A DNA stretch of 64,000 bases from Candidatus Omnitrophota bacterium (lineage in GTDB: Bacteria; Omnitrophota; Gorgyraeia; Gygaellales; Profunditerraquicolaceae): contig JAGOOP010000001.1 in NCBI GenBank assembly GCA_017992455.1, positions 123,723 through 187,722 of the forward strand, in the 5' to 3' direction. The notes beneath the pieces are model-generated. The model was not told the origin of the DNA. It did no database searches and worked only from the letters and a program-made list of their open reading frames with translations. A program made the translations under genes and the position numbers. This document shows positions 5,359-49,223 of this stretch, piece after piece. Numbering within the stretch: the stretch's first letter is position 1; every line of letters begins with the position of its first letter.

Positions 5359-8300
5359 TTATCCTATGCAGACAAGAATATCTGTCAACTCAGTCCGCGT
5401 CGCAAGCCCCTGCTCCTCTTCCAAGCGCAGGATATTCAGGATACAGCGGGCCGTTTTCTCCAGATGTTCCCCTGCATCAGGCCGGCAAACGCAGACAGCA
5501 ACATATTCCTTCATCCTGGCGTAGGGCATTTCTTTTGCGCGCATCTGCGCCTCGATGGCTTTCCACTCTGCGTCCAAGTCCTGTATTTTTGAATTTCTTG
5601 CCAGCTGTTGCATTTCCAGCATCGCCTGCGGCATCATCACGGGCGCCTGCTGCGGCTGACCGCCGCCGTGCAGCGCCCGGAAATCAATGCCGGCGAGGTC
5701 CTGCTGCTGCGCGTCTATATCCCGGACCTCTCCGCCGTCCAGCTGCACCTTGGGCCGCTGTGTGTCGTTATGAGACGCTTGATTTTTTTCGATCGCATCT
5801 ATTATTTTCGGCACTTGCGGCATGATCTTTTCGTCATATGGTTTCAGCTTATCCAATCCCTTGAGCTGGCGTATTGCATCCTTACCTAATGCCGCGATTA
5901 AAACTTTTATATTTCCTTTAAAATATGCTTCGAAGACAACATCTTCCCCCACTGCTTCAATCACTCTGCAAGCCAAAAATAACGCCGGGGCATAGGAATT
6001 CTTGACGCCGAGGACTTTGCGCTCTAATTCCTGTGCCTGTAGATCCAGGGGATAGTTTGTGTCCGCGGCATCGATCAAGAAGTCTTTTAAACTCGACGTC
6101 GCTATTTTCCAGGCGGCATATTCAGTGACCCCTTCGTCAAGGATCTTGCCAATGCTTCTTAAACCGCGGGAGTTGTGGTGCAAACCTTCATGAAGCAGTA
6201 GCATTGTCAGCAGCGGGCCATCCAATTCAGAAGGAATAACATAGGTTTGGTGGAAGGGAAAGTATCCCGCAGAGTAGACGCCCACATATTTTTCAACGAT
6301 ATGGCCCGGGACAAATTTCACGTCATATGGCACAGGCGGATTCACATGTATTGCATTAAGAAAATCCGTCAACAAGACGTCATTTTCCTCCATCCGCCTT
6401 TGCTGAGACACCGAGGACTCTACGGAATGCCGTATCAGAATTATTTCTTTCTTTATGCTTTTGTTCATGTGCTTCTGTACCATCCTCCAGATAACCTCTT
6501 CGGTGGTCCCGATGTTGAATTTCCTGAGGACCTGCCGGAAATAGCGCTCAAGAACTTCTTCGGTCAGTTGCAATTTGGGATCCTTCCATGTTTCTTTGGA
6601 CGCATCAAATATCTTCCTGATTTTTTCCCGGATATCGTCTGCTTGTTGATCGAACCGAGCGGTCTCATTACTCTTGTCGTCGTCCCGCTGCGCCGCGGGC
6701 CGCTCCGTGCCGCCGTCGCGCTGCACCAGGCATTCCCGCGGCAGCCAGATCGTGACCGTCGTTCCCCCGGCATCTTCATGTTCCACGGAGGAGAACTCCG
6801 CATCCGGCACTCCTGCTTCACGCCATAGAGAGGCCAGCAATCCCGGGCTGCCGGTCTGACTGTCTCCGCGGCAGATGATATTGACATCTATACCGCTCCC
6901 TCCGAAATAGAGATCAAAACCGCGTTCCCTCATTAATTCTTTCCGTCGCGTATCGGCGGCGTACGTTCCCGCGCCATTATCTTTGATCCGTATCTGCAAG
7001 CTCTCCTTCTCATTATGCATAACCCAACCGGCACTCAACTTAAGGATCCCTGTTACGGGAGGCTGTTGTGCGGCGTGCCCGATTTCCTCCATATATTCTC
7101 TGTCATGGAATGTGGCTACGGCGTCATAACTGTTCCGCACAAGCCGAAGGATGAGATTCTGTAAAGATCGCTCGAAAATAGTCATTTCTTTGCCGTTCAC
7201 ATCCAGGAAGTCGCCGATAAACGGCTTTTTAAACTCGAGATCAGCCAGAATGGTATTCTTAACAAGGGAATCAAAGCGCCACGTTACAAATTCACTCTTC
7301 TGTTTGATCATTGAATCCTTATCCATGGGTTCTGAGTGCGAAAGAAACCCAATCGTACGGTCAACGATCTTTACGATCTGCTCCTCTGCACCCCGGTCAG
7401 CTAGCGGTGTATGCTCCGACCCAGTGCCGCCGTCGCGCTGCACCAGGCATTCCCGCGGCAGCCAGACGGTCACCGTCGCTCCCCATCCGTCATCGCCGTA
7501 CGTCAGGCTGTAAAACTGCTCTGTCGCATCTTCATTATCCTGATTCTTGGGTATGGTGACTCCCGCCAAACCCCACAGATATGCCAGGAGCCCTTGAGCG
7601 CCGGTCGCGCTGTCGCCCTTGCTGATCATCCGGGTATCCAGCCCGGCGCCGCCGAAATAGAGATTACTTCCTTCAACGAACGATTTGTGCCTGGTATCGG
7701 CAGCGAACAAGCCTGCGCCGTTATCCGCGATCGTGATCCTGAGGCTTTCTTTCCCGGTCTGCGGATGTGTTGCCCAGTGTGCGGCGAATGTCAATCTGAC
7801 CTTTTCCGGTATCGGCCTATCAGCACATCCGATCTTCCCCATATACTCGCGATCGTGGAATGTCGCAACAGCGTCATATCCGTTGACTGCAAGTTTGCGT
7901 ATAAGCGTCTTGAGCGTTGTCTCGGTTATCGTTGCCATATTTCCCTCGAATCCGTTCCCGTTTCCGAAAAATTCCCGGAACCTGATCGTAAACGGTTCCT
8001 TGTATTTCAGGCCGAAGAGGATGGTGTCTTCCATGACTGAATCGACCAGGGCGAGGAACTTATTGTTTTCTTCGATTGCCCGCTGACCGTTCATTCTCGC
8101 TTCAACAGGAGGCACCGCAAACTCGATGGTTTTTTCGACGATCTTTGCTTCACGGGAAAGAATACGCATCCGATCGGCGATATCCTCTTGGCCGAACGCT
8201 CTGCGCGCGAACCATACGAGCCGGGACTTCACCGCACGCATTCTGGTAAGAAGAGCCGCGGGTCCTAAAAAGAGACCGAATAACGCGCCTCGCGTCGTCA

Positions 8301-11300
8301 ACTCATACGTCCGCTGGACTTCGGCTGGAAAGATATCCGTGCTGTTGGAGTCGGGCGCCGAATCCTCACGCGCCTCGTTGATCTTCTCAATCAGATATTT
8401 ATGCTCATCCGGGTCAAGCCGGTCAATGCGGTCTGAAAAATACGGGTCGATCACCTTGCCGCTGATGTTCCCTACCTTTTGCTCCCTCATCCTCACGCGT
8501 TTCTCTTCATCGCCCGGATTGAGCATATACCACAAAGCCCAGCGGAGCACCCCGAACGGCCCTGCGTCATTATACGCGTGGATCTCATTGACCGCATGGC
8601 TGCTTTCATGCGCCACAATACGGACCCTCAGATCGGTCGAGTAAGAATCGAATGAATCTTTTAATATGTAAATATCGGCGCCTTTGACCAGCACGTGCGG
8701 AAATCCGATGCGCGGAAGCGCCATGCCTTCTGCCCAGGGATTCGGCAGGGGAAGTTCGTCGACGAGCGTGATCGAGACATTGCCTGACATGGCGGTCCGG
8801 GCCAGATCAGGCTCGATCAGATACAACCAGATGACCGCATGCGCCACATCGGGTTCTTTCTCCCACCGCTCCAGGGCGTGTTCTCTGAAAAGCACGTAAT
8901 CCTCATACGCGCGGAACGCCTCTTCGCTCTCATAGATCCTGCCGTCTGCGGCCTGATAAACCGAGTCATATCCGGCCTGCCCAAGAAAACTCTGCAGATC
9001 AAGGATCTGGTACATATCCGTTCTCTTCTCTTTGGTCCACTGCTCGTTCGGCTCATTGTGCAGCAGATCCATGGACACGATGGTATGCGCATCGGGAATC
9101 TGGGCCTCGAACGCTTCGTAATCCTGCTGGAACGCAACGCCGTACTTTTCTTTGTAAGCGCCCAGCTCTTTTTCAAGCACGGTCCTGAGCGCCCGCGTTT
9201 TCTGGATATCTTTGATCGCGCCGCTGTCCTGAGGCGCATGCATTGCGCCGGCAGTTTTGTAAACTTTGATCGAATTGAACGCACCCTGGGCCAGATAACT
9301 GCTCCAGTGGAATGCCTCCCTTTCAGTATAGGTATCAGGGAACAGGGCCTGCGGATCATTGCCGGCCTGAATATAACGGTCTATCGCGCCCGCCTCCTCT
9401 TTCTCAAATAAAAACTCTTTGAAGCGAGACGCGGCAGGAATTATCGGCCCGAGTTCTTCCTCGGCCTGCCGCAGATCAGCCTGCAGCCGCGCATGCCGCT
9501 CGCGCAGTTCATTCCACTCCTCGGGACGAGTTTCTTTTTCTCCCCGCTGGATCATGCCAACCATGGAAACCTGCGCGCTGAAGCTTTGATCCGTCAGGTC
9601 GCGGTGTTTCAAGAGTTCCTTGTCAATATCGCGCGTATCTTTATGCGTATTCCTGTATTCCCTGACCAGATCGTTCACTTCGTCTCTCAAAGCTTCCAGG
9701 TCCTGCAGTTCGTCATGATCGGCAGGAACCCCGCTCAAGACATCGACCTGATCGCCCACAAACCCTATCTGATATCCCATTCTGCCTTTATCGTTGAGAT
9801 ATTCCGCAATGGCTTTGGGATCCCTGCCTGTGATATCAAGGATCTCTATGATATGCCCGTCGCGGGCGCCGTAAAGCGTATATTCATTCAAATACCTGCT
9901 CAGATTCTGTACCGCGTTGCCGTTGACGACCAACAGAAGCGGAACATCATGAGTTTTTACATACGAGGCGTTTTGCTGCTCAAGATACAGGTCTGGAAGC
10001 GGATTGACAACGAGCGATATGCTGACCGGATGCGAGGTATTATCGGTTAACCCCTCCGGCTCAGATAAAAAGAACGACGTGTAATCGGTTGAATAGGGGA
10101 TTTTTTCAATATGATTAAAAGTCGTCAGGTGCAGCGGCTGCATATCCGGGCCGAGAGGATCGGATGTGTGATCATCGGCCATGCCGCTTACATACGCGTG
10201 AACGAATCCTCCTATAAAAAACGACGGAACGACAAAGAAAGCAAAAACCGCCAGCGTCTTAAAACGCCGGGAGAGCATGCCCTGCGGCTGCGGCGTGTTA
10301 GCGCTGACCATGCCTTCCTGTATTTTCCAGTTCCGGAGATCATCGCGAAGCAAAAGCAGGTCCCCGTACGTCCACGCGCGCAGATCGCCGGCCATCAGAT
10401 CCTTGAACCGCCTGAGCTTCCTTTGCGACGGGATGCCGTAGTGCGCCAGCATCAGGGGGATGATCTGCTCGATCAGCGCGTGCTTTTTGCCGCGGATATC
10501 GTCTGCCAGAGCCCGAAGGCCGTTGGCAGGGATCTCTTCTGGCAAAGAATCGATGCCCCGCGCGTCAAAATATTCCTGCACGAGCTCCCGCTGCTGCCGG
10601 ACCGCTTCTGCATGGTCGCCCGTGCCGCCGTCCCGCTGCACCGCGTCTTCATGCTGCGGGCTGAGCAAGTCGGCTTTTGTTTCTTCGAGGTCTGTCAGTA
10701 AACGGCCGCGGGGATTTCGCAAATCCTGATGCTTCATATAATCACGATTATAGAAACCTCCGGCTCTGCCGGATCCCTGCTCCCGGTTCATAATTAATTG
10801 CAGTCGATCATATGTCGCTTCCTGTATCGGCGCGGTCAATATGGTGCCATCTGCCTGCATGATAACCAGCCGACGGCCAACAATCAGATAATGCTTGGAC
10901 AAGAGCTGTTCCAGGCTATCCTGAACTGACATTCCCAGCCGGATCTTGATTTCCTTATTTGCCTGTGCCAGGCTTTCAGCTATCGCATTGCTCTGTAAAG
11001 CAGAGAATTCCTTGGCCTCCGCTGGCCTGAACCATACTATCCTTGTCTCCGGATCATTTTTGTCGCGAAATCCCGTTGCATATACGGTGGCCAGTATCTT
11101 GGACCGGATGTTCTTTTCCGGCGGGGCGCTGAAAAGGCGCACGCTCTTGCTGCCCGGAGGCAGTATCAGTTCACCGATGATATCCTCTTCGCCGCCGTCG
11201 CGCCGAGATTGACTGCCGTCTGCCTGAGAGAACTGAAATCCTGCCTCTTCCGCTATCTCGAGTAATTTAGCCCTGCCGCGCGCCAGCCAGCCGGCAATCT

Positions 11301-12522
11301 GAATTTCAGAATATCCCTGAGCCGCCAGGAAATCTTTGGCCTGTCTGACCTCATCATCATAAGGAATTCGCGTGTCATTCTCATCTTCCCCGCGTGACTG
11401 ATTTCCGCCGTCTCGCGGCACGGATCCCTTTTTATCGCCGATAGATAAATTCTGTATAATAAAATCACTCACGTATTCACGATTGTCTAACGAGGACGAT
11501 GGGATCGCGGTCAAGCTGCCGCCTGCGACCTGTATGCCGCCGGAGAAATACTGCCTTATGGTTACGCCGTATGGGCTGTTTATGGTTTCTTCTTTTCTGT
11601 ATTCGCCTTCGGAAAAGGACCGTTTGTAGGCATTAAAGCAGGAGGCTTTCGACCATGCCTCTTTTGATGCGAGTCCGTTCAGATCTTTTCCGTCGATGAC
11701 AGGGTTATCCTCATTTTTCGACTTGAACCATTGTGCCAGGATTAACGAATAATACACCTGTCGAAGCTCAGCGTATCTCTTGGAGGAATTCACCTCCCTG
11801 GTCAGCTTCGGAATGATCAGCTGGCGCACAAGGTCTGAGGAATATTCATTCAGCTTTTTAACATTCGGGTCGTCGAAATTGTAGAACGGCGAGTCCTTTA
11901 TGTAATCCTGCTCGAGCATAACTTGCAGGGTCGCCTTGTAGATGAATACACCCTGGGGGGTTTCCCTGATGATGATCTCGCCAGGCACGATCCACGGACG
12001 GGTGAATGTCGGTATCTCTATATCCTGCCCGCTGTAAGTCTGTTCTGCTTTCTCATACAGCTTGTTCCAGTATTGCCTGCCTTCGGGTGTATCGGGATTG
12101 GTAAAACGCGCGAGGTCTTTCTTCAACTGCAGGTCAGCCTCAAGCAGAACTTTTCCAAGGTCCGTCTTTTCCAGATACGGATCGATGACATTATCAGGAG
12201 AATCAGGTCGTAGATTTACCCAAAACATGCTATTGGGTAATGCCAGGCCTATTTTGAAATATTCAAAGAGTTTTCGGGAGGATTCTTCTGCCTGGCCGGG
12301 CGTGAGACTTTTAAGGTCCCCTTGATCAAGAAGAAGCTGGAAGTTGTTTGTGCTCGGATCGAATTCAATTGAACGCAGCTGAACAGGCCTGAACCTGTCT
12401 GCAACAGGCGCGAGATTGCTTAAATACGCGGGCACGGCAAACTGGCCAGCGACCTGTGCATAGCCGGTTTGCTCGGAAATAAAACAAAAACAAATTAGTA
12501 AGGCAATGATCCGCTTGAACAT
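5359..12522 (-). CDS. Giant (2,387 aa) secreted/membrane multidomain protein of unknown function
   Basis: Uninterrupted ORF with a signal peptide (MFKRIIALLICFCFISEQTGYAQ) and internal hydrophobic helices (TLAVFAFFVVPSFFIGGFVHAYV; GALFGLFLGPAALL). It has two HExxH motifs (VAHESSHAV at 8591-8620; LLLHEGLHHN at 6173-6202), two GHKL-like modules and six (R/L)DGG junction motifs. Confidence 0.9.
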   Translation of the reverse strand: MFKRIIALLICFCFISEQTGYAQVAGQFAVPAYLSNLAPVADRFRPVQLRSIEFDPSTNNFQLLLDQGDLKSLTPGQAEESSRKLFEYFKIGLALPNSMFWVNLRPDSPDNVIDPYLEKTDLGKVLLEADLQLKKDLARFTNPDTPEGRQYWNKLYEKAEQTYSGQDIEIPTFTRPWIVPGEIIIRETPQGVFIYKATLQVMLEQDYIKDSPFYNFDDPNVKKLNEYSSDLVRQLIIPKLTREVNSSKRYAELRQVYYSLILAQWFKSKNEDNPVIDGKDLNGLASKEAWSKASCFNAYKRSFSEGEYRKEETINSPYGVTIRQYFSGGIQVAGGSLTAIPSSSLDNREYVSDFIIQNLSIGDKKGSVPRDGGNQSRGEDENDTRIPYDDEVRQAKDFLAAQGYSEIQIAGWLARGRAKLLEIAEEAGFQFSQADGSQSRRDGGEEDIIGELILPPGSKSVRLFSAPPEKNIRSKILATVYATGFRDKNDPETRIVWFRPAEAKEFSALQSNAIAESLAQANKEIKIRLGMSVQDSLEQLLSKHYLIVGRRLVIMQADGTILTAPIQEATYDRLQLIMNREQGSGRAGGFYNRDYMKHQDLRNPRGRLLTDLEETKADLLSPQHEDAVQRDGGTGDHAEAVRQQRELVQEYFDARGIDSLPEEIPANGLRALADDIRGKKHALIEQIIPLMLAHYGIPSQRKLRRFKDLMAGDLRAWTYGDLLLLRDDLRNWKIQEGMVSANTPQPQGMLSRRFKTLAVFAFFVVPSFFIGGFVHAYVSGMADDHTSDPLGPDMQPLHLTTFNHIEKIPYSTDYTSFFLSEPEGLTDNTSHPVSISLVVNPLPDLYLEQQNASYVKTHDVPLLLVVNGNAVQNLSRYLNEYTLYGARDGHIIEILDITGRDPKAIAEYLNDKGRMGYQIGFVGDQVDVLSGVPADHDELQDLEALRDEVNDLVREYRNTHKDTRDIDKELLKHRDLTDQSFSAQVSMVGMIQRGEKETRPEEWNELRERHARLQADLRQAEEELGPIIPAASRFKEFLFEKEEAGAIDRYIQAGNDPQALFPDTYTEREAFHWSSYLAQGAFNSIKVYKTAGAMHAPQDSGAIKDIQKTRALRTVLEKELGAYKEKYGVAFQQDYEAFEAQIPDAHTIVSMDLLHNEPNEQWTKEKRTDMYQILDLQSFLGQAGYDSVYQAADGRIYESEEAFRAYEDYVLFREHALERWEKEPDVAHAVIWLYLIEPDLARTAMSGNVSITLVDELPLPNPWAEGMALPRIGFPHVLVKGADIYILKDSFDSYSTDLRVRIVAHESSHAVNEIHAYNDAGPFGVLRWALWYMLNPGDEEKRVRMREQKVGNISGKVIDPYFSDRIDRLDPDEHKYLIEKINEAREDSAPDSNSTDIFPAEVQRTYELTTRGALFGLFLGPAALLTRMRAVKSRLVWFARRAFGQEDIADRMRILSREAKIVEKTIEFAVPPVEARMNGQRAIEENNKFLALVDSVMEDTILFGLKYKEPFTIRFREFFGNGNGFEGNMATITETTLKTLIRKLAVNGYDAVATFHDREYMGKIGCADRPIPEKVRLTFAAHWATHPQTGKESLRITIADNGAGLFAADTRHKSFVEGSNLYFGGAGLDTRMISKGDSATGAQGLLAYLWGLAGVTIPKNQDNEDATEQFYSLTYGDDGWGATVTVWLPRECLVQRDGGTGSEHTPLADRGAEEQIVKIVDRTIGFLSHSEPMDKDSMIKQKSEFVTWRFDSLVKNTILADLEFKKPFIGDFLDVNGKEMTIFERSLQNLILRLVRNSYDAVATFHDREYMEEIGHAAQQPPVTGILKLSAGWVMHNEKESLQIRIKDNGAGTYAADTRRKELMRERGFDLYFGGSGIDVNIICRGDSQTGSPGLLASLWREAGVPDAEFSSVEHEDAGGTTVTIWLPRECLVQRDGGTERPAAQRDDDKSNETARFDQQADDIREKIRKIFDASKETWKDPKLQLTEEVLERYFRQVLRKFNIGTTEEVIWRMVQKHMNKSIKKEIILIRHSVESSVSQQRRMEENDVLLTDFLNAIHVNPPVPYDVKFVPGHIVEKYVGVYSAGYFPFHQTYVIPSELDGPLLTMLLLHEGLHHNSRGLRSIGKILDEGVTEYAAWKIATSSLKDFLIDAADTNYPLDLQAQELERKVLGVKNSYAPALFLACRVIEAVGEDVVFEAYFKGNIKVLIAALGKDAIRQLKGLDKLKPYDEKIMPQVPKIIDAIEKNQASHNDTQRPKVQLDGGEVRDIDAQQQDLAGIDFRALHGGGQPQQAPVMMPQAMLEMQQLARNSKIQDLDAEWKAIEAQMRAKEMPYARMKEYVAVCVCRPDAGEHLEKTARCILNILRLEEEQGLATRTELTDILVCIG
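6730..7180 (-). other. GHKL (Bergerat-fold) ATPase-like module 2 within the giant protein
   Basis: Motif I is LVRNSYDAV (7114-7143), motif II is IKDNGAGT (6964-6987) and the G2-like motif is YFGGSGID (6886-6909). The module ends in GGTTVTIWLPRECLVQRDGGT. Confidence 0.6.
7446..7930 (-). other. GHKL (Bergerat-fold) ATPase-like module 1 within the giant protein
   Basis: Motif I is LAVNGYDAVAT (7862-7897), motif II is IADNGAGLF (7705-7731) and the G2-like motif is YFGGAGLD (7635-7658). The module ends in GATVTVWLPRECLVQRDGGT. Confidence 0.6.
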
Positions 12523-17657: not shown

Positions 17658-17763
17658 AAATTGAACGGTTGACCCCAAAGGCTCTGTCCCTCGGGACAGA
17701 GCGCCAAAATTCGCGTTTTCGGCGAAAATTCGGCGGGGCAAATTCAAGTATAGGTGAACTTCG
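17651..17763. repeat. Inverted repeat A, left copy (113 bp)
   Basis: It is the reverse complement of 19275-19387, with one mismatch (17748 against 19290). It starts with the tRNA 3' end GGCACCA and contains the internal palindrome CTCTGTCCCTCGGGACAGAG. Confidence 0.95.
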
Positions 17764-17869
17764 TAAGGAGTTCACCTATTTCTTTTTCGGCGTCCTCAGT
17801 CAAAATTCTTTTTTTCTCCCTCATGAGGAATCCGCTGGAAACCCGAAAGGCGCAAACCTGGAGGTCGCC

Positions 17870-19477
17870 ATGAAATGCGCCGTGTACGTGCGGGTTTCCA
17901 CCGAAGAACAAGCCAAAGCGGGTTACTCTCTCGCCGCCCAGACAGATAAGATAATTGAGTTTATACGCAACAAAGGCTGGACGCACACCGAAATTTATTG
18001 CGATGACGGCTACTCTGCCGCGACGCGGCGGCGGCCAGCACTTGAGCGTTTGCTGGCCGATTCAACGGCGCGGCAGTTTGACGCCGTCCTGGTGTATAAG
18101 ATCGACCGCTTCTCGCGCAACCTCAAAGACCTGCTCGATATTGTCGAACAATTGAGCAAGAACGCCGTCGGCTTCAAGTCGATAACCGAATTGATCGATA
18201 CCACCACCCCTGAAGGCCGCCTCATGTTCCACCAGTTCGGCTCATTCGCGCAATATGAGCGCGAACTGATCGCCCAACGCGTAATGCTTGGACTGCGTAA
18301 AAGATTCCAGTCCGGCATGTGGGTAAGCGGCGTAGCTCCCTTCGGCTACAAGCAAAAGAACGGAAAACTTGAACTTGTTGATAAAGAGGCGGCCGTCGTC
18401 AAGACCATGTTCGACCTCTACACCCAAAAGAACCTCGGCGTGATAAATATCGCCCGTTACTTAAATAACGCGGGACTACGGACACGGGCCGGAAATATGT
18501 GGAAGCCGACGGTCATTCACCACATTATCACAAATCCGACTTACACAGGTTGCATAATACGCGGCGGCGAGAGAGTAACCGGGGCTCACAAACCCATTGT
18601 TAAAGAGGAAACATTTAACCGTATAAAAGAGCTCCTTCCTACTCGCAAAGCGAAAACCCGCGTGTTTGTGAGCCCCAACCTCTTCACCGGGTTCATATTC
18701 TGCGGCTGCGGCGCTCCCATGCACATGATTTATCCAGGACTGCCAAATAAGATTCGTTATAAATACTATGCCTGCTCCCGGCGCATAGCCTATAAAGACT
18801 GCAAAACCGAATATCTACGCCAGGACATCTTAGAAACCAGTGTTTTAGATCAGCTAAACAAGCTTGCCACTGATAAACCAAGACTGACCGCGATAATAAC
18901 CCTTCTTAAAAACCAGAACAACAAGCTTTTACCTGGCTTGCGCCGCAGCCGCCTGGAGCTGTCGCAAAATATCAGCGGTCTGACACAGCAAAAAAACGGG
19001 TTATTAAAATGGATGAGCGCAAAAGAAGCAAAACCTTATACGCTGAACGTACTCAATGAGAAATTCGAGAAGATCGAGCTTGAACTAAACGAATTAACGC
19101 ACAAGTTGTGGCAGACCGACGAGGAATTGAGTAAGAGGTCGCGCTTTGGCTTGTCTTCGGAGAAAGTCGCCTTGTGGCTTAAGCAAGTGATCAAGACTTA
19201 CGCGGATTCCGACCGGCAGGAGAAAAAAAGAATTTTGTCTGAGGTTTTGGAAAAGATCACAGTAAAATCAAAAGACGAAGTTCACCTATTCTTGAATTTG
19301 CCCCGCCGAATTTTCGCCGAAAACGCGAATTTTGGCGCTCTGTCCCGAGGGACAGAGCCTTTGGGGTCAACCGTTCAATTTGGTGCCCTTCGTCTGAAGA
19401 ATACCCAAAAGGCTGTTTGTCAATTAACCTACTCGATTCAATCCTACTACCAAAAGAAAGATCAGTCAAGAGAATAG
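17870..19477 (+). CDS. Large serine recombinase (resolvase domain, recombinase domain, zinc ribbon, coiled coil)
   Basis: The ATG at 17870 follows a GGAGG Shine-Dalgarno. The protein reads MKCAVYVRVSTEEQAKAGYSL...VLVYKIDRFSRN..., then CGCGAPMH...YYACSRRIAYKDCK as the zinc ribbon, then a long coiled coil. The last 68 codons lie inside the inverted repeats. The TTG-started N-terminal extension in the ORF track (17669) is repeat DNA. Confidence 0.9.
   Translation: MKCAVYVRVSTEEQAKAGYSLAAQTDKIIEFIRNKGWTHTEIYCDDGYSAATRRRPALERLLADSTARQFDAVLVYKIDRFSRNLKDLLDIVEQLSKNAVGFKSITELIDTTTPEGRLMFHQFGSFAQYERELIAQRVMLGLRKRFQSGMWVSGVAPFGYKQKNGKLELVDKEAAVVKTMFDLYTQKNLGVINIARYLNNAGLRTRAGNMWKPTVIHHIITNPTYTGCIIRGGERVTGAHKPIVKEETFNRIKELLPTRKAKTRVFVSPNLFTGFIFCGCGAPMHMIYPGLPNKIRYKYYACSRRIAYKDCKTEYLRQDILETSVLDQLNKLATDKPRLTAIITLLKNQNNKLLPGLRRSRLELSQNISGLTQQKNGLLKWMSAKEAKPYTLNVLNEKFEKIELELNELTHKLWQTDEELSKRSRFGLSSEKVALWLKQVIKTYADSDRQEKKRILSEVLEKITVKSKDEVHLFLNLPRRIFAENANFGALSRGTEPLGSTVQFGALRLKNTQKAVCQLTYSIQSYYQKKDQSRE
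19275..19387. repeat. Inverted repeat A, right copy (113 bp)
   Basis: It is the reverse complement of 17651-17763 (112/113) and lies inside the 3' end of the recombinase gene. Confidence 0.95.
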
Positions 19478-19830: not shown

Positions 19831-20262
19831 CTATCTGTATTTTACGAATTTGGTATTCCCAAGCTCGTAATAATAGTACCAAACTTCCGAAACATTAACG
19901 TTATGTTTTGATATGAGACGCAATGCTTCGTCACAATACTTGCTTGGTACAATCAACAGAAACTTGATACCTAGGCTTCCATAATCTTTCCATTGTTCCG
20001 CTTCTGAATCAGAAACAGACTCAGCGGTTTCAATTTCTTCAATTATGACAGCCGTACCTCTAGCCGAACCTAATGAATCAGGCAGCCATACTACAACATC
20101 AGGATAACGCGGATTAGACGCAGGTCCTACAAATTGATTCTTCTCCCCACCAGGATTAGTGCTCACTTTGTAACCCTTGCGTTGCATTTCTCCATAAGTC
20201 GCAGCTGACGCACTGACTATTCTATCATGCTCGGATTCTTCCAGGGTTGTACGAATAGCCAT
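19831..20262 (-). CDS. Hypothetical 143-aa alpha/beta protein; possible PD-(D/E)xK-like fold (weak)
   Basis: Start MAIRTTLEE at 20262, after a strong AGGAGGT Shine-Dalgarno. YPDVVVW...AVIIEEIET resembles a nuclease core without the canonical Lys. An RLISKH (Rx4H) string lies near the C-terminus. I recognise no family for it. Confidence 0.5.
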   Translation of the reverse strand: MAIRTTLEESEHDRIVSASAATYGEMQRKGYKVSTNPGGEKNQFVGPASNPRYPDVVVWLPDSLGSARGTAVIIEEIETAESVSDSEAEQWKDYGSLGIKFLLIVPSKYCDEALRLISKHNVNVSEVWYYYYELGNTKFVKYR

Positions 20263-20457
20263 TATTTTTTGGTATACCTCCTTCCTAAAATTTCTGTGGG
20301 GAAGTTGCCAAAAGTATTGACTTTTCACCTCCTTAGGATATACTAATGACAACGGCACTAACACAGATATTTAGTGTCCCAAGGGTGGATAAAAGGCCCC
20401 CAAGCCAAACTTTATCCGCCCTTTTTCTTTTATTCAAAGACCATCAGTAGTTAGTTA

Positions 20458-21096
20458 TCAAACCAAGAATTTATTTAGCTCATTTACTAATATATGTACG
20501 GTCGTAGAAGGTCTTCTGACGCTAGCGGGATGAGTAGCTATGTAACCAGATAGAAGTCGCGAGGCATTTCTTATTCCATCCCCCTGTTTGTTTAGAATAA
20601 GCTGGTAGATTTCAGTACTGTTTTTCTCGTAAGGCTTACCTAAAAGTGCGCTTAACCTGGTAATATATTCCGATCGTTTTGAGGCAGTTTGATGATATTG
20701 GAAGTGTAACAAGTACCATAACTCAAAACACTCATTAGAATAAGCCACTTTGATATCATGTTTTTTTGCCAACGCAATAGCCTTTTCAAAGTTATCATCA
20801 GGATTATCATCTTTATCAAATACACACCAAATTTGATCAAACTTTATACCGTATGTTGCAGCATCTTTCTTGTACTTTATAGTCTTTTCTACAAGAGACA
20901 CTGTATTATCTCCCGGCCCAAAGATTTCGTCTTTTACTTGAGAGGAAGTTAACCGAAAACTGTTAAAATAATTAGGCTCAGTTTTCTCCCCTTCACAGAC
21001 AATTAAGAAAGTTTCTCTAACTGTCCTGACGGCAACTTGCCTTTTAGCGATTCTTGACTGTTTTCTTTTCCAAAACGCGGCGTCCGGTTCTTTCAT
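20458..21096 (-). CDS. RloB-like (Toprim-related) protein, AbiLii-type
   Basis: The N-terminal FLIVCEGEKTEPNYF motif is characteristic of RloB-like proteins, followed by WCVFDKDD. Its start is in an ATGA overlap with the upstream ATPase stop. Confidence 0.75.
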   Translation of the reverse strand: MKEPDAAFWKRKQSRIAKRQVAVRTVRETFLIVCEGEKTEPNYFNSFRLTSSQVKDEIFGPGDNTVSLVEKTIKYKKDAATYGIKFDQIWCVFDKDDNPDDNFEKAIALAKKHDIKVAYSNECFELWYLLHFQYHQTASKRSEYITRLSALLGKPYEKNSTEIYQLILNKQGDGIRNASRLLSGYIATHPASVRRPSTTVHILVNELNKFLV

Positions 21097-22346
21097 TTTC
21101 TAAAAAGCGAGTTGTCTCCTCTAATAAAAGGAATAGCTCCATATTTGCCTGCAATGTAGTCTTTCTCAAAAGAAGCATCATTTCTAACTTTATATTCTGC
21201 CAAAGAATATAAATCAGTCGCCCCATATTTATTTTTTTCTGTTAGCCATATTTGATCTCTGCGGAAAATGCTTCTATTAAAAAGATTGGTATTGTGAGAA
21301 GCAAAAACTAATTGAGCATTCTTGGGGTTATTCTCAAGAGAATTAAATAATGTTATAAGAAATTTTATTAAAATAGGGTGGAGTTTCGCGTCAAGCTCAT
21401 CAACTACTATTATGCTCCCATTCTTAAGAGTGTCTAGAAAAGGCCCGGAAAGAGCAAAGAATTTCTTAGTGCCTTCGGATTCCTCTATCCCCAAATCAAA
21501 TTTAACCGAGGATATTGGCTTGTTTTCGTTATCAAATTTTGAGTGCAAAGTTTGGATGCTAACATTGAAAACTTGTCCCTCTGGGCCAAATTTTGCTTTT
21601 TCCTTTTCAGACATATCCTCATACTTTAACTGCGTTTCCTCTAAATTAATATCCTCGATTCCTAAATCGGCTTCTTTGAGAAATCTGAGAACATTTTTCC
21701 TGAATTCCTCATCCTTGATTCTTTCAAGAGTGAACGGAACAAGCCTTACGTCTATCAGCGTAGATATAATATGGAGGTTTTTCCCAAACCAATTTAAGAT
21801 CTCTTTTGAAATCTCGCCATTCCATTGAGCAACAACCGATAAGAAGAGCGCATTAGGTCTAGTTATTTTCTCCTTTCCTTTGCCTTCTTTAAAATGCGTT
21901 CCGATTTGAAAGTTGTCCCCTTCTCTTACGAAAAGTTGAGTTTCTTTTCTAATCGGAACGCTAAAAAGCCATTCTCGTACTACCTTTTCTCTATCAACCT
22001 GAAAACCATATCTATACCTTGTTTCTTTATGAATAAAAACTACTTCGAAAAGAGATGGTTTATCATCTGTTTCAGCACTCAATTTAAAGTTTGTGACATT
22101 AATTCTTCCCTTATCTTGGGTAGAAGTTAAAACAAATTTTTTCATAAACCTCATTGCTCTAATCAAATTACTTTTCCCACTTGCGTTGGCTCCATAAATA
22201 ACTGCACTCTTCAATAACCTTAATTTATTGTTAGCTATAAATAGATTTGTATCCGCATGTTCTTTCTTAGCGGAAGCAACCATGCTGAAAGTTACAATAT
22301 CTTTAAAAGATAAGAAATTCCCTACACTAAATTCAATTATCATCAT
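21093..22346 (-). CDS. AAA15/AAA21-type ABC ATPase (AbiLi / AriA / OLD-ATPase class)
   Basis: Walker A is GANASGKSN, the signature-like motif is ESEGTKKF, Walker B is IIVVDELDAKLHP and the H-loop is FASHN. The N-terminus MIIEFSVGNFLSFKD is typical of the family. Confidence 0.85.
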   Translation of the reverse strand: MMIIEFSVGNFLSFKDIVTFSMVASAKKEHADTNLFIANNKLRLLKSAVIYGANASGKSNLIRAMRFMKKFVLTSTQDKGRINVTNFKLSAETDDKPSLFEVVFIHKETRYRYGFQVDREKVVREWLFSVPIRKETQLFVREGDNFQIGTHFKEGKGKEKITRPNALFLSVVAQWNGEISKEILNWFGKNLHIISTLIDVRLVPFTLERIKDEEFRKNVLRFLKEADLGIEDINLEETQLKYEDMSEKEKAKFGPEGQVFNVSIQTLHSKFDNENKPISSVKFDLGIEESEGTKKFFALSGPFLDTLKNGSIIVVDELDAKLHPILIKFLITLFNSLENNPKNAQLVFASHNTNLFNRSIFRRDQIWLTEKNKYGATDLYSLAEYKVRNDASFEKDYIAGKYGAIPFIRGDNSLFRK

Positions 22347-26661: not shown

Positions 26662-27092
26662 TTCCCGCCTCTTTCGCGTCTGGGCCGCAGCCGCTTTTTT
26701 TCGCCGGCCTTGATCGTATGCCAGTTCGCAATGATCTCTTTGGTCGACCCGACTTTTTGCTTCCCGAATACGTGCGGATGGCGCCTTTTAAGCTTCTTGA
26801 TCAGGCCGTCGATCACGCCTTCAATATCGAATTTCCCGGATTTGGACGCGATCTGCGCCTGGAACATGACATGGAGCAGGATATCGCCGACTTCTTCCTT
26901 CATATGAGGATAATCCCTGTTCCGGACAGCTTCGACGAACTCGTCAACCTCTTCCTGCAGATCCTTTAACAGCGACGCGTGCGTCTGCTCCTTGTCCCAC
27001 ATGCATCCGCGCGGACCATGAAGTGTATCGTATATCTTTTTCAATTCCGTGAACCTGGTCTTATCCCTGTTCCGCTTCTTCATTGAGTTCAT
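26658..27092 (-). CDS. mazG: MazG-family nucleoside triphosphate pyrophosphohydrolase
   Basis: GCMWDKEQTHASLLKDLQEEVDEFVEAV...EEVGDILLHVMFQAQIA...KRRHPHVFG. Confidence 0.85.
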   Translation of the reverse strand: MNSMKKRNRDKTRFTELKKIYDTLHGPRGCMWDKEQTHASLLKDLQEEVDEFVEAVRNRDYPHMKEEVGDILLHVMFQAQIASKSGKFDIEGVIDGLIKKLKRRHPHVFGKQKVGSTKEIIANWHTIKAGEKKRLRPRRERGGK

Positions 27093-27921
27093 ATCCTTTC
27101 GCCAGGAGATATCCTTTGGCCCGTTCCGTATGCCGGTACCGGTTTACGATATCCCAGAAATCGGTTCCGTGGCCGCGGCATACAAGATGCGCCAGCTCGT
27201 GCACGAGCACATAATCCCGCACCCATGCGGGCATGAACGCGACGTGATGCGCAATGCGGATCTTCCGGCGCTCGTAATCGCAGCAGCCGAATTGAGCGTT
27301 CTGGCCCGTTACATATTCTATAGACTCAAAGCGCAGTTTGCCAGAGAAATATTGTTTGTTCAGTTCGAAAGCGCGCCTGGCGAGGGCCCGGTCGCTATTG
27401 AGATCTTTTTTCAAAAGCTTCTTTTCGATCCGACCCCTGAGATCATTGATGACAGCCTGAAGATCCCCGTCAGCGATGCGGGCGGGAACCCGCACATACA
27501 ACGTATCCTTGACCATGCGGGCGCTTGCGCTGCGCGAACGCCTTCGGGTGCGGACCACTTTTATCTCTTTGATGCGGCTCTGCCGCAGGGAGGGATAATG
27601 GAAAGCCAGCCATACGGTATTCTCATGCGGTATTGTCCATTCGACCCGGTGGCTGCATCCTGCAGGGATCGTCATATGATCGCCGGGGATAAGGGTCATT
27701 TCCGCCGGGCCGTCGAAGAACTTCAATCGCGCCGAGCCGGATAGTAACACGACCCATTCGTCCGTATCCTGTGAAAGCCACTGCCCCGGCGGCGTTGACT
27801 GGCCGCGCGACACAATGCGCTCGAGCCTGACGCCGGGACCGGCAATGACCGTCTCGGAAAACTCATCGGAATGGCAGCGAGCGGGATCCGTGAATATATT
27901 GTGCTTTTCAGGGATTGCCAT
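27061..27921 (-). CDS. Fusion of a cupin domain and a YgjP/DUF45-type HExxH metal-dependent hydrolase
   Basis: The N-terminal ~110 aa form a cupin (WVVLLSGSARLKF...GDHMTIPAGCSHRVEW). The C-terminus has VLVHELAHLVCRGHGTDFW. Confidence 0.65.
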   Translation of the reverse strand: MAIPEKHNIFTDPARCHSDEFSETVIAGPGVRLERIVSRGQSTPPGQWLSQDTDEWVVLLSGSARLKFFDGPAEMTLIPGDHMTIPAGCSHRVEWTIPHENTVWLAFHYPSLRQSRIKEIKVVRTRRRSRSASARMVKDTLYVRVPARIADGDLQAVINDLRGRIEKKLLKKDLNSDRALARRAFELNKQYFSGKLRFESIEYVTGQNAQFGCCDYERRKIRIAHHVAFMPAWVRDYVLVHELAHLVCRGHGTDFWDIVNRYRHTERAKGYLLAKGYELNEEAEQG

Positions 27922-38208: not shown

Positions 38209-38385
38209 AAAGCCTTCTTCTTGAACCTTAATTATATGATGGCAGGGCTTAAAATGCAAGCCCTTTTGCCGAAAACAACGGAAACAGCCGGGTGTCCAGG
38301 GAAGCGCGAATAGCGTTGAAATAGCTTGACCCCGGGATAACGGGTGCTAGACTAACATATATATAAAAAACCATTGCGCCTCTTA

Positions 38386-39900: not shown

Positions 39901-40045
39901 TATCGAAGGCGTCGCGTCCGCGGCTCTCGCCATTCGCTCCTCTTCCTCCCAGGCACGCATAAAAAAATAATAGTGAGATTTTCTTTGAGGAAGCATCTGT
40001 TATATTAAGGAAGCGTTCATCATGGCCGGAAAGGAGAAGCTGCGT

Positions 40046-44367: not shown

Positions 44368-44404
44368 TGTCGGTTTTTTCTTTCTGCGTGCATTGTTGAG
44401 CGTA

Positions 44405-47282: not shown

Positions 47283-47291
47283 GGTCCCGTG

Positions 47292-49115: not shown

Positions 49116-49223
49116 GACGCTCCTATACATTCACGATCATCGTAATATTGTATTATACCATCGCCCCTTTGGAATAAAAATAATTTTGTGCCGCGCATTG
49201 CACGATCGGCTCTTGCCGGACCG

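What the first reader, a model, noticed from the sequence alone, without database searches (positions are those of the whole stretch)
5728..11418. Six-fold recurring (V/L)Q(R/L)DGG junction motif in the giant protein: candidate processing sites
Seen: the string RDGG or LDGG occurs six times, always at a module boundary and always followed by an acidic or Gly-rich linker.
- VPRDGGN, codons at 11418-11401.
- SRRDGGE, 11209-11189.
- AVQRDGGT, 10644-10622.
- LVQRDGGT, 7445-7423.
- LVQRDGGT, 6729-6707.
- KVQLDGGE, 5751-5728.

The two GHKL modules end in the identical 14-aa WLPRECLVQRDGGT, and the underlying DNA is also conserved.

Inference: a short motif ending in Gly-Gly at every domain junction resembles polyprotein cleavage sites. 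Double-glycine sites are cut after GG by dedicated peptidases, and the protein carries its own HExxH motifs. Alternatively it could be a conserved structural cap of a repeated fold.
Basis: partly seen in the sequence, partly recalled or inferred. Interest (0 to 1): 0.55.

Follow-up and report, generated by a model that had tools for sequence, protein, structure and literature searches.

The report
Conserved junction motif in Omnitrophota modular proteins
A short Lys/Arg-Asp-Gly-Gly signature marks the exposed linker between nearly every pair of enzyme modules in a large, undescribed family of long Omnitrophota proteins, which makes it the first concrete candidate for where such proteins might be cut into pieces, although cutting itself is not shown.

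Summary
The 2387-aa ORF (window 5359-12522, minus strand) has exactly six DGG, all preceded by R or L (0.13 expected).

The protein belongs to an Omnitrophota-only family with up to 8 paralogs per genome. Each member has a conserved about 330-aa N-terminal "head" after a signal peptide, a shuffled set of unrelated enzyme modules, and a conserved about 110-aa C-terminal "tail".

- In 64 of 120 homologs, [KR]DGG[STN] recurs at module borders. It follows the head, precedes the tail, and brackets every Pfam domain checked.
- It is an island of conservation (60-64% identity against 17-30% in the flanks).
- Pro is almost absent right after GG (1 of 515 sites).
- It lies in disordered or fold-edge positions in an AlphaFold model.
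- A sister lineage uses [AS]SSP[LVI] at the same positions instead. The choice is genome-wide and follows head phylogeny.

So this is a selected linker recognition motif, not a fold cap and not chance. A processing site for a trans-acting, lineage-specific protease is the best reading (about 0.4), but it is unproven and no protease was found.

The parts
5359..12522 (-). 2387-aa ORF; a member of the Omnitrophota head-cargo-tail family; 100% identical to NCBI MBP6919495.1 (hypothetical protein, Candidatus Omnitrophica MAG)
12454..12522 (-). N-terminal signal-peptide-like segment (aa 1-23, MFKRIIALLICFCFISEQTGYAQ). It is unusually conserved in the family: Q18, G20 and A22 are invariant.
   Evidence: invariant columns; helix 2-18. 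The signal-peptide assignment is my reading of the sequence; no predictor was run.
11530..12453 (-). Conserved 'head' domain (aa about 24-331). Alpha/beta fold with no solved relative and no invariant His or Cys.
11404..11412 (-). Junction motif 1: VPR-DGG-N (aa 371-373), 26 aa after the head
11191..11199 (-). Junction motif 2: SRR-DGG-E (aa 442-444)
10624..10632 (-). Junction motif 3: VQR-DGG-T (aa 631-633)
10201..10257 (-). Strongly hydrophobic 19-aa segment (aa 756-774), a candidate transmembrane helix
   Evidence: Kyte-Doolittle mean 2.19; crude predictor
8596..8610 (-). HExxH no. 1 (HESSH, aa 1305-1309), inside the 1063-aa stretch that has no DGG
7435..8163 (-). GHKL-like module 1 (aa about 1454-1696)
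7426..7434 (-). Junction motif 4: LVQR-DGG-T (aa 1697-1699); lies in a linker with pLDDT below 50
6718..7383 (-). GHKL-like module 2 (aa 1714-1935); the folded core of the AlphaFold model
   Evidence: HATPase_c E 1.4e-4, below the cut-off; (histidine-kinase CA domains, prob 0.97)
6709..6717 (-). Junction motif 5: LVQR-DGG-T (aa 1936-1938); exactly at the boundary between fold and disorder
5740..6708 (-). Module with HExxH no. 2 (aa 1939-2261; HEGLH at aa 2111-2115, followed by DEGVTEY). No family hit; not seen in the other 119 homologs.
5731..5739 (-). Junction motif 6: KVQL-DGG-E (aa 2262-2264), 15 aa before the tail
5362..5694 (-). Conserved C-terminal 'tail' domain (aa 2277-2387), opening with (G)GIDFRAL(P). 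It is always at the C-terminus in the family.

Best explanation
The six (R/L)DGG strings are copies of a selected linker motif with consensus Q-[KR]-D-G-G-[STN]. The motif separates independently folding modules in an Omnitrophota-specific family of long secreted or membrane-associated proteins. Each family member has a conserved N-terminal head, a shuffled cargo of unrelated enzyme-like modules, and a conserved C-terminal tail.

Shown:
- The motif is specific in residue identity and order.
- It sits at module borders.
- It is more conserved than its surroundings.
- It lies in exposed or disordered linker.
- A sister lineage replaces it genome-wide with a different motif, [AS]SSP[LVI], at the same positions.

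Inferred: the motif is the recognition and cleavage site of a trans-acting endopeptidase that co-evolves with the lineage. Such an enzyme would cut the precursor into head, single modules and tail, in the manner of a polyprotein or a multi-effector toxin. The scissile bond cannot be told from sequence; it could be after GG, after D, or after K/R. The protease has not been identified.
For: - Six sites against 0.13 expected.
- Family-wide, 458 DGG against 83 expected in 120 homologs.
- In DGG-class proteins, DGG 434 against GDG 27, GGD 54, EGG 26 and NGG 18.
- The first DGG lies up to about 50 aa after the head in 53 of 62 proteins. The last lies up to about 25 aa before the tail in 45 of 51.
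- BLAST homology breakpoints in the cargo coincide with DGG: 184 and 200 of 449, against a null of 48 +/- 9.
- Every Pfam domain located in P0002, P0008, P0016 and P0024 lies wholly between consecutive DGG sites.
- Median spacing is 206 aa, which is domain-sized.
- The motif is an island of conservation: 60-64% identity at D, G and G against 17-30% in the +/-10 flanks, over 133 junction-spanning pairs.
- Subsite-like constraints: K/R 51% at -1, with D, E, V and I nearly absent; S/T/N enriched at +1; Pro at +1 in 1 of 515 sites against about 21 expected.
- In homologous GHKL-like modules the distance to DGG varies by 10-19 unrelated residues, yet DGG is kept in 6 of 7.
- AlphaFold places one site in a linker with pLDDT below 50 and the other at the fold/disorder edge.
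- The motif class is uniform across all paralogs of a genome, for example 47 DGG to 1 SSP over 8 paralogs. It also follows head phylogeny: the nearest neighbour is in the same class in 113 of 117 cases.
Against: - There is no direct evidence of cleavage.
- No candidate protease was found. There is no C39 or clan-CE peptidase in the 64-kb window. There is no conserved peptidase neighbour in 77 related loci; conserved neighbours are rsmI, gyrA, gyrB, dnaN and glmS. The head has no invariant Cys or His.
- The motif does not match known GG-site consensus sequences, which have a hydrophobic residue at P4; here P4 is K/R.
- A crude hydropathy test places DGG sites on both sides of predicted membrane helices (146 against 129). 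That is awkward for a protease confined to one compartment, although the predictor is weak.
- 56 of the 120 homologs have fewer than three DGG, so DGG is a lineage trait and not universal to the family.
Confidence: 0.4

Rival explanations
1. The motif is a recognition element that is not cleaved. It would be a short linear motif in exposed linkers, bound or modified by a lineage-specific partner. Possible roles are a docking site for a chaperone or export factor that handles the chain module by module, a cross-linking or glycosylation site, or an assembly signal. The protein would function intact as beads on a string.
For: The evidence that the motif is selected, exposed and lineage-specific fits this reading equally well. 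The sister motif [AS]SSP[LVI] looks more like a modification site (Ser-Pro) than a typical protease site. Q at -2 together with K at -1 could serve a cross-linking chemistry. Sites appear on both sides of predicted membrane helices.
Against: No modifying enzyme or partner was identified. The near-absolute exclusion of Pro after GG, and a specific basic residue before D, are most familiar from protease subsites. Placement at both ends of every module, including directly after the head and before the tail, is what release of modules would need.
Confidence: 0.25
2. The motif is a linker 'dialect' left by module shuffling. Junction sequences would be copied along with modules, or homogenised by gene conversion, within a lineage. 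The motif would then mark recombination joints and have little protein-level function.
For: - The cargo is massively shuffled and homology breaks at the motif.
- The two GHKL-like module ends in the window share 41 identical nt. There, 12 of 13 degenerate codons are the same, against 46% elsewhere in the duplicated modules.
- All six sites use GACGGCGG.
- In other genomes GAC is used at 89% and GGC at 84% of sites. A residual excess of GGC remains after context controls (p about 1e-4 to 4e-4).
- The motif class is lineage-specific.
Against: - Most of the codon bias is general codon context: D before G is GAC in 71-76% of cases, and G before G is GGC in 65%.
- Family-wide, the 30 nt flanking DGG are no more alike within a gene than between genes (8.8 against 8.5 identical). 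The nucleotide logo shows no conservation outside the 8-nt core. Junction DNA is therefore not generally homogenised, and 8 nt is too short for homologous recombination.
- A neutral scar would decay, yet D-G-G is 2-3x better conserved than its flanks and carries residue-specific exclusions.
Confidence: 0.2
3. Cis autoprocessing by the protein's own HExxH metallopeptidase-like modules.
For: The query has two HExxH against 0.08 expected. HExxH is enriched family-wide (41 against 2.9 expected). Some members carry Peptidase_M48. The second motif is followed by DEGVTEY, which resembles the gluzincin third ligand region (my reading of the sequence).
Against: Only 10 of 64 DGG-class proteins contain any HExxH. 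Whole genomes with 5-8 DGG-rich paralogs show none or one among the loci recovered. Neither HExxH segment hits a peptidase family in Pfam, NCBIfam or PDB. HExxH modules are themselves bracketed by DGG, like any other cargo.
Confidence: 0.05
4. Structural cap of a repeated fold, or a chance or low-complexity artefact.
For: Two of the six sites end duplicated GHKL-like modules with an identical 14-aa string.
Against: The flanked modules are unrelated folds. The spacing to the fold is variable. The GG lies in disordered sequence. No shuffle reached six copies. Permuted triplets are 8-16x rarer.
Confidence: 0.03

Closest known systems
MARTX multifunctional-autoprocessing toxins (Vibrio)
   Same: A long secreted protein with conserved N- and C-terminal regions flanking a variable, shuffled set of effector or enzyme modules. 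The modules are released by cleavage in the unstructured linkers between them. This is from established knowledge of the family and serves as an analogy for how the protein may work.
   Different: No cysteine protease domain (CPD) and no glycine-rich A/B/C repeats were detected. MARTX linkers are cut after Leu, not at DGG. The head and tail here have no detectable relative. Cleavage is not shown here.
Double-glycine leader processing by C39 peptidase domains (PCAT transporters; Nif11/NHLP-type leaders)
   Same: A Gly-Gly pair followed by a small or polar residue. C39-like domains have been reported near the N-termini of other giant Omnitrophota proteins and proposed to cleave them (bioRxiv 10.1101/2023.11.21.568195). 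Segment aa 374-441 has a sub-threshold Nif11-leader hit that ends shortly before a DGG.
   Different: The sites are internal and repeated, not a single N-terminal leader. P4 is K/R rather than hydrophobic. No C39 domain is present in this protein, in the window, or next to related loci. None is listed among the precomputed Pfam domains of the 120 homologs.
Gly-Gly-X polyprotein processing by clan CE and ubiquitin-like-specific proteases (adenain, ASFV pS273R on pp220/pp62, coronavirus PLpro LxGG, deubiquitinases on polyubiquitin)
   Same: Repeated GG-X sites between functional units of one translation product. A basic residue lies close to the GG, as in ubiquitin's LRLRGG. This is from established knowledge.
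   Different: Those are viral or eukaryotic systems with hydrophobic or Leu P4 and no Asp at P3. No such protease was identified here. The upstream modules are not ubiquitin-like.
'Archaeovorin' and other giant ORFs of Omnitrophota (West-Roberts et al. 2023 preprint; Seymour et al. 2023, PMC10066038)
   Same: Same phylum. Same unusual cargo repertoire: HEAT, HATPase_c, PGM/PMM, GNAT, NUDIX, PPDK, radical SAM and M48. An N-terminal signal peptide. The same open question of whether the chains are cleaved.
   Different: This family is 1.3-4.3 kaa, not above 30 kaa. It is defined by a head and a tail that those papers do not describe. No junction motif has been reported for the giants.

Membership tests
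Omnitrophota head-cargo-tail family (defined in this report; not a named family) | Conserved N-terminal head (FWVNLRPD, TRPWIVP, RQVYYS, SGG) | tested here: met
   119 of 119 homologs align to query aa about 1-345 at 50-85% identity. 426 head-encoding stretches were found in the species-representative genomes. The 77 loci kept were almost all labelled Omnitrophota, with some labelled 'uncultured Planctomycetales', 'Deltaproteobacteria' or 'bacterium'.
Omnitrophota head-cargo-tail family (defined in this report; not a named family) | Conserved C-terminal tail that opens with GGIDFRALP | tested here: met
   About 105-110 of 119 homologs align to query aa 2277-2387. The tail is at the C-terminus in every full-length hit, with 262 representatives at E <= 1e-3.
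Double-glycine (C39/PCAT) leader cleavage site | Gly-Gly at P2-P1 | tested here: met
   DGG at all six sites
Double-glycine (C39/PCAT) leader cleavage site | Hydrophobic residues at -4, -7 and -12 of an N-terminal amphipathic leader | tested here: not met
   The position 4 residues before the putative cut is K/R in 51% of sites, and V and I are nearly absent. Upstream positions are rich in A, S, G and Q. The sites are internal.
Double-glycine (C39/PCAT) leader cleavage site | A C39 peptidase domain in cis or encoded nearby | tested here: not met
   No C39 hit in the protein, among the 30 other window ORFs scanned, or as a conserved neighbour. The rest of the genome was not searchable.
MARTX-type multi-effector toxin | Variable effector modules between conserved terminal regions | tested here: met
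   (this is an architectural analogy only)
MARTX-type multi-effector toxin | Internal cysteine protease domain and glycine-rich terminal repeats | tested here: not met
   No such Pfam or NCBIfam hits. Head and tail are not repeats.
Clan CE / ubiquitin-like GG-X polyprotein processing | A GG-X site with hydrophobic P4, and a cognate CE-clan protease | tested here: inconclusive
   GG-X is present and Pro is excluded at P1'. P4 is basic, not hydrophobic. No protease was found in the window. A genome-wide search is not possible with these tools.
GHKL (Bergerat-fold) ATPase, for the two duplicated modules | Match to HATPase_c, and a Bergerat fold | tested here: inconclusive
   Pfam HATPase_c scores 22.7 bits against a cut-off of 26.4. 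The AlphaFold model has pLDDT 74.5. Its best fold matches are histidine-kinase CA domains (prob 0.97, E 2e-3, TM 0.26-0.44). DNGAG and YFGG motifs are conserved.
Gluzincin metallopeptidase, for the two HExxH segments | HExxH plus a downstream Glu ligand, and a match to a peptidase family | tested here: inconclusive
   HExxH occurs twice against 0.08 expected. HEGLH-x14-DEGVTEY resembles the M1/MA pattern (my reading). There are no Pfam, NCBIfam or PDB sequence hits.
Archaeovorin-type giant Omnitrophota proteins | ORF above 30,000 aa with many transmembrane helices | tested here: not met
   The query is 2387 aa. The family maximum is about 4.3 kaa. Only one strong hydrophobic segment was found.

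The most novel reading that the evidence does not exclude
Omnitrophota, a phylum of ultra-small bacteria inferred to be host-dependent or predatory, encode multi-paralog 'cellular polyproteins'. In this reading a conserved head (export, delivery or anchoring) and a conserved tail frame a shuffled set of cytoplasm-type enzymes that need ATP, SAM or acetyl-CoA. A co-evolving, still unknown protease cuts these enzymes apart at lineage-specific sites, [KR]DGG in one clade and [AS]SSP[LVI] in another. The result would be a bacterial counterpart of viral polyproteins or MARTX toxins, possibly delivering enzyme cocktails into prey or host cells. It would also provide the missing cleavage-point rule for the phylum's long proteins.
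Probability: 0.3. Interest if true: 0.85.

Novelty: new variant of a known kind. Interest (0 to 1): 0.62.

Why it matters
Long and giant Omnitrophota proteins are a recognised puzzle. The literature asks explicitly whether they act as single chains or are cut up, and states that no cleavage points are known (bioRxiv 10.1101/2023.11.21.568195).

This finding gives three things.
- A defined, widespread family (head-cargo-tail, several paralogs per genome) that the papers searched do not describe.
- A simple sequence rule that splits these proteins into their modules, which is useful at once for structure prediction and annotation.
- A pair of mutually exclusive, lineage-specific junction motifs. 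These make the processing hypothesis directly testable by proteomics and by phylogenetic profiling for the matching enzyme.

If the sites are cleaved, this would be a rare case of a polyprotein strategy in cellular organisms. If they are not, the motif is still a new short linear motif under strong selection in bacterial linkers.

Tried and rejected
1. **Nucleotide-level element.** All six sites use GACGGCGG, and 89% GAC and 84% GGC are used in other genomes. This looked striking at first. Controls showed that most of it is general codon context: GAC is used in 71-76% of cases before Gly codons, and GGC in 65% before Gly. Only a modest residual excess at the middle Gly codon remains.

2. **Concerted evolution of junction DNA.** This holds for the one GHKL-like pair in the window but not family-wide.

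3. **Compartment test.** A crude hydropathy parity analysis showed no side bias for DGG. The predictor is too weak to conclude anything.

4. **Head as the protease.**
   - It has no invariant Cys or His.
   - A PDB profile search gave no hit.
   - Foldseek against PDB gave no fold match (best E 0.19, TM 0.12).

5. **Protease in the neighbourhood.**
   - 30 window ORFs were scanned. They include a YgjP-like metallopeptidase-domain protein at 27061-27921, far from the gene and of a ubiquitous family.
   - Flanks of 77 loci were clustered. No conserved peptidase partner was found.

6. **Homolog search with the GHKL-like module alone.** It returned nothing, not even the parent protein, so the search was wasted.

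7. **Segment-wise Pfam, NCBIfam and PDB searches of the unannotated modules.** Only sub-threshold hits were found.

8. **Tail search across 1.84 billion representatives.** The tail is never found in proteins above 10 kaa, so no link to the true giants was established.

9. **Literature.** No paper holds both 'Omnitrophota' and 'polyprotein'. No junction motif is mentioned in the three Omnitrophota giant-protein papers read.
Full report
**1. Observation**

The minus strand of window 5359-12522 encodes one 2387-aa ORF.
- DGG occurs six times, at aa 371, 442, 631, 1697, 1936 and 2262. It is always preceded by R (five times) or L (once), and there is no other DGG in the protein.
- From composition, 0.81 DGG and 0.13 [RL]DGG are expected. 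None of 20,000 shuffles exceeded three [RL]DGG.
- GDG, GGD, EGG and NGG are absent from this protein.
- The two GHKL-like modules do end in an identical WLPRECLVQRDGGT, encoded by 41 identical nucleotides.
- In the rest of the 64-kb window only three DGG occur in long ORFs, one each, which is a chance level.

**2. What the protein is**

The ORF is 100% identical to a hypothetical protein of a Candidatus Omnitrophica MAG. Pfam and NCBIfam recognise almost nothing in it. There is only a sub-threshold HATPase_c match at aa 1786-1929.

A search of 5.8 billion proteins found 648 relatives. The named ones among the 120 listed are almost all labelled Omnitrophota. They are 1.3-4 kaa long and share only about 14% of the query. 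Local BLAST shows which parts are shared:
- the N-terminal about 345 aa (the 'head'), in 119 of 119;
- the C-terminal about 110 aa (the 'tail', opening with GGIDFRALP), in about 105-110 of 119.

The region in between is different in nearly every protein. It carries a very diverse set of Pfam domains: HEAT, PGM/PMM, metallophosphoesterase, GNAT, several methyltransferases, ROK, enolase, M48, ABC1, NUDIX, PPDK and HATPase_c.

A scan of one genome per species found 426 head-encoding stretches, with up to eight paralogs per MAG, some in tandem. Of the 77 loci kept, most are labelled Omnitrophota; some are labelled 'uncultured Planctomycetales', 'Deltaproteobacteria' or 'bacterium'. Conserved neighbours are housekeeping genes: rsmI, gyrA, gyrB, dnaN and glmS.

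The tail is always C-terminal. It has 262 representatives at 50% clustering, and none is longer than about 4.3 kaa.

An AlphaFold model of the head is confident (pLDDT 82, pTM 0.77) and becomes disordered after residue 331. It has no relative among solved structures by sequence profile or by Foldseek. It has no invariant Cys or His.

This is therefore an undescribed head-cargo-tail family. Its cargo repertoire matches that reported for the much larger 'Archaeovorin' giants. The papers read mention neither the head, the tail, nor any junction motif.

**3. The motif in the family**

In the 120 homologs DGG occurs 458 times against 83 expected. 64 proteins have three or more copies.

The consensus is Q-[KR]-D-G-G-[STN], after an A/S/G/Q-rich stretch. 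The enrichment is specific to this order and these residues: DGG 434, against GDG 27, GGD 54, EGG 26 and NGG 18.

Position:
- The first DGG follows the head within about 50 aa in 53 of 62 proteins. The last precedes the tail within about 25 aa in 45 of 51.
- In the cargo, 184 HSP starts and 200 HSP ends out of 449 fall next to a DGG. Randomly placed sites give 48 +/- 9.
- In four proteins scanned with Pfam, every located domain lies wholly between two consecutive DGG sites. These domains are GNAT, Methyltransf_28, UPF0489, DUF7790, M48, Metallophos, HATPase_c, a HEAT array, PGM_PMM_I and Methyltransf_25.
- Spacing has a median of 206 aa.

Selection:
- In 133 aligned pairs of 80% identity or less that span a junction, D, G and G are identical in 60-64% of pairs. 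Residues within +/-10 are identical in 17-30%.
- Acidic and beta-branched residues are nearly excluded at -1.
- Pro follows GG in 1 of 515 sites, against about 21 expected.

Structure:
- In seven homologous GHKL-like modules, the last strand (WLP/WIP) is followed by 10-19 unrelated residues before DGG, which is kept in six of the seven.
- In the AlphaFold model of aa 1676-1965 (pLDDT 74.5), the folded core is aa 1714-1936.
- The upstream DGG (1697) lies in a linker with pLDDT below 50. The downstream one (1936-1938) lies exactly where confidence collapses.

The 'cap of a repeated fold' alternative is excluded, because the flanked folds are unrelated.

**4. A second dialect**

51 of the 120 homologs have one DGG or none. 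They instead carry a recurring [AS]SSP[LVIA]: 139 copies in these 51 proteins, against 24 copies in the 64 DGG-rich proteins. It occupies the same places, right after the head, between modules, and right before the tail. A further group uses looser variants such as ASP[LIV] and ASSA.

The choice is genome-wide:
- RA.bin37: 8 paralogs, 47 DGG to 1 SSP.
- PPR_0461: 7 paralogs, 29 to 1.
- JPNA_metabat.7: 5 paralogs, 25 to 0.
- Other MAGs have essentially no DGG in any paralog.

It also follows head phylogeny. The nearest neighbour is in the same class in 113 of 117 cases.

Two unrelated short motifs at equivalent positions, switching together across all paralogs of a genome, is the pattern expected for sites read by a lineage-specific trans-acting factor.

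**5. DNA-level signal: examined and mostly discounted**

All six sites use GACGGCGG. At 122 sites in other genomes GAC is used in 89% and GGC in 84%, while the third codon is at background. Controls show a general context effect: D before G is GAC in 71-76% of cases, and G before G is GGC in 65%. GAC is then no longer significant (p = 0.054). A modest excess of GGC remains (p about 1e-4 to 4e-4).

The two GHKL-like module ends in the window share codons at 12 of 13 degenerate positions, against 46% elsewhere. This suggests a local gene-conversion event.

Across the family, however, the 30 nt on either side of DGG are no more alike within genes than between genes. The nucleotide logo is flat outside the core.

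The motif is therefore maintained at the protein level. Recombination-scar explanations are weakened but not eliminated.

**6. Mechanism**

Shown: a selected, exposed, lineage-specific short linear motif at every module junction.

Inferred (confidence about 0.4): it is an endoproteolytic processing site that releases head, modules and tail, in the manner of a polyprotein or of MARTX toxins.

For:
- It is placed at both ends of each module.
- The constraints resemble protease subsites, including Pro exclusion after GG.
- The linker is disordered.
- There is precedent for GG-X sites (C39 peptidases, clan-CE proteases).
- The literature suspects that long Omnitrophota proteins are cleaved.

Against:
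- There is no direct evidence.
- No protease was found in the window or as a conserved neighbour.
- P4 is basic rather than hydrophobic, so known GG-specific enzymes are not matched.
- A crude topology test shows sites on both sides of predicted membrane helices.

HExxH is enriched in the family as cargo (41 against 2.9 expected), but it is present in only 10 of 64 DGG-class proteins. Neither HExxH segment of the query hits a peptidase family.

Rivals:
- an uncleaved docking or modification motif (about 0.25);
- a shuffling 'dialect' (about 0.2);
- cis autoprocessing (about 0.05);
- a fold cap or chance (about 0.03).

**7. Novelty and verdict**

It is a junction and recognition motif with good evidence, it is a plausible but unproven cleavage site, and it is probably not cut by the protein's own HExxH modules.

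Neither the head-cargo-tail family, nor the junction rule, nor the DGG/SSP dichotomy appears in the papers searched.

I rate it a new variant of a known kind (modular multi-enzyme precursor with inter-module sites), with interest 0.62. The most novel admissible reading is a bacterial polyprotein strategy with co-evolving protease and sites, possibly linked to a host-dependent lifestyle. I give it about 0.3 probability and 0.85 interest if true.

Noticed in passing
window 7423-7464 and 6706-6747 (-): The ends of the two GHKL-like modules share 41 identical nucleotides. There, 12 of 13 degenerate codons are identical, against 46% same-codon use at identical residues elsewhere in the duplicated modules (49% aa and 56% nt identity overall). 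This looks like a short gene-conversion tract at the junction.
   Followed up: yes
window about 8182-8217 (-), aa 1436-1447: Upstream of GHKL-like module 1, 'VWFARRAFGQED' aligns with the module-end string 'VWLPRECLVQRD(GG)'. This appears to be a decayed junction relic that has lost its DGG. It lies inside the 1063-aa stretch with no DGG.
   Followed up: partly
window 11200-11403 (-), aa 374-441: The 68-aa segment between the first two DGG sites gives sub-threshold hits to Nif11-type RiPP leader peptides (Pfam PF07862 E 0.034; TIGR03798 E 0.025). That leader class normally ends in a double-glycine cleavage site. This is a weak lead only.
   Followed up: partly
window 12454-12522 (-), aa 1-23; alignment A1: The N-terminal signal-like segment is far more conserved than ordinary signal peptides ('CFCxIFEQxGFAQ'; Q18, G20 and A22 invariant in 24 sequences). 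This hints at a dedicated sorting or processing step.
   Followed up: no
homologs P0043, P0053, P0055, P0089, P0115 and others; loci L028, L035, L049, L060: A sister lineage of the family uses [AS]SSP[LVIA] instead of [KR]DGG at the same junction positions. Its tails differ too ('IIPS..RIKEY' against 'MPY..IKEY') and carry an extra C-terminal extension of about 25 aa.
   Followed up: partly
window 8596-8610 and 6178-6192 (-): There are two HExxH motifs (HESSH, HEGLH) against 0.08 expected. The second is followed after 14 residues by DEGVTEY, which resembles a gluzincin third-ligand region. No peptidase family hit was found.
   Followed up: partly
DGG sites in loci L001-L077: The middle Gly codon of DGG is GGC in 84% of sites, against 65% for G before G in general and 51% in D-G-[AVDE] contexts (p about 1e-4 to 4e-4). 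This small synonymous excess is unexplained.
   Followed up: partly
window 17669-19477 (+) and 20001-22346: A large serine recombinase (Resolvase, Recombinase and Zn-ribbon domains) lies next to a low-GC stretch (0.38 against about 0.54) that encodes an AAA_21/AbiEii-like ATPase. This is probably an integrated mobile or defence islet.
   Followed up: no
window 38374-49130: A cluster of a PMT_2 glycosyltransferase, three large TPR proteins (one fused to a GDSL-like lipase/acylhydrolase domain) and an MBOAT O-acyltransferase. It looks like a surface-polymer modification locus.
   Followed up: no
loci L014, L059 and L023 (JAKLGJ010000003); L001 and L002 (JAPLLS010000093): Family paralogs occur in tandem arrays (three and two adjacent genes) in some MAGs. 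Other paralogs sit next to gyrA, gyrB, dnaN, rsmI and glmS.
   Followed up: partly
The search for homologous proteins, given the 269-aa GHKL-like module as plain letters, returned no hit at all. It did not return even the parent protein, which is in the database. This is probably a limitation of the word-index candidate step.
   Followed up: no
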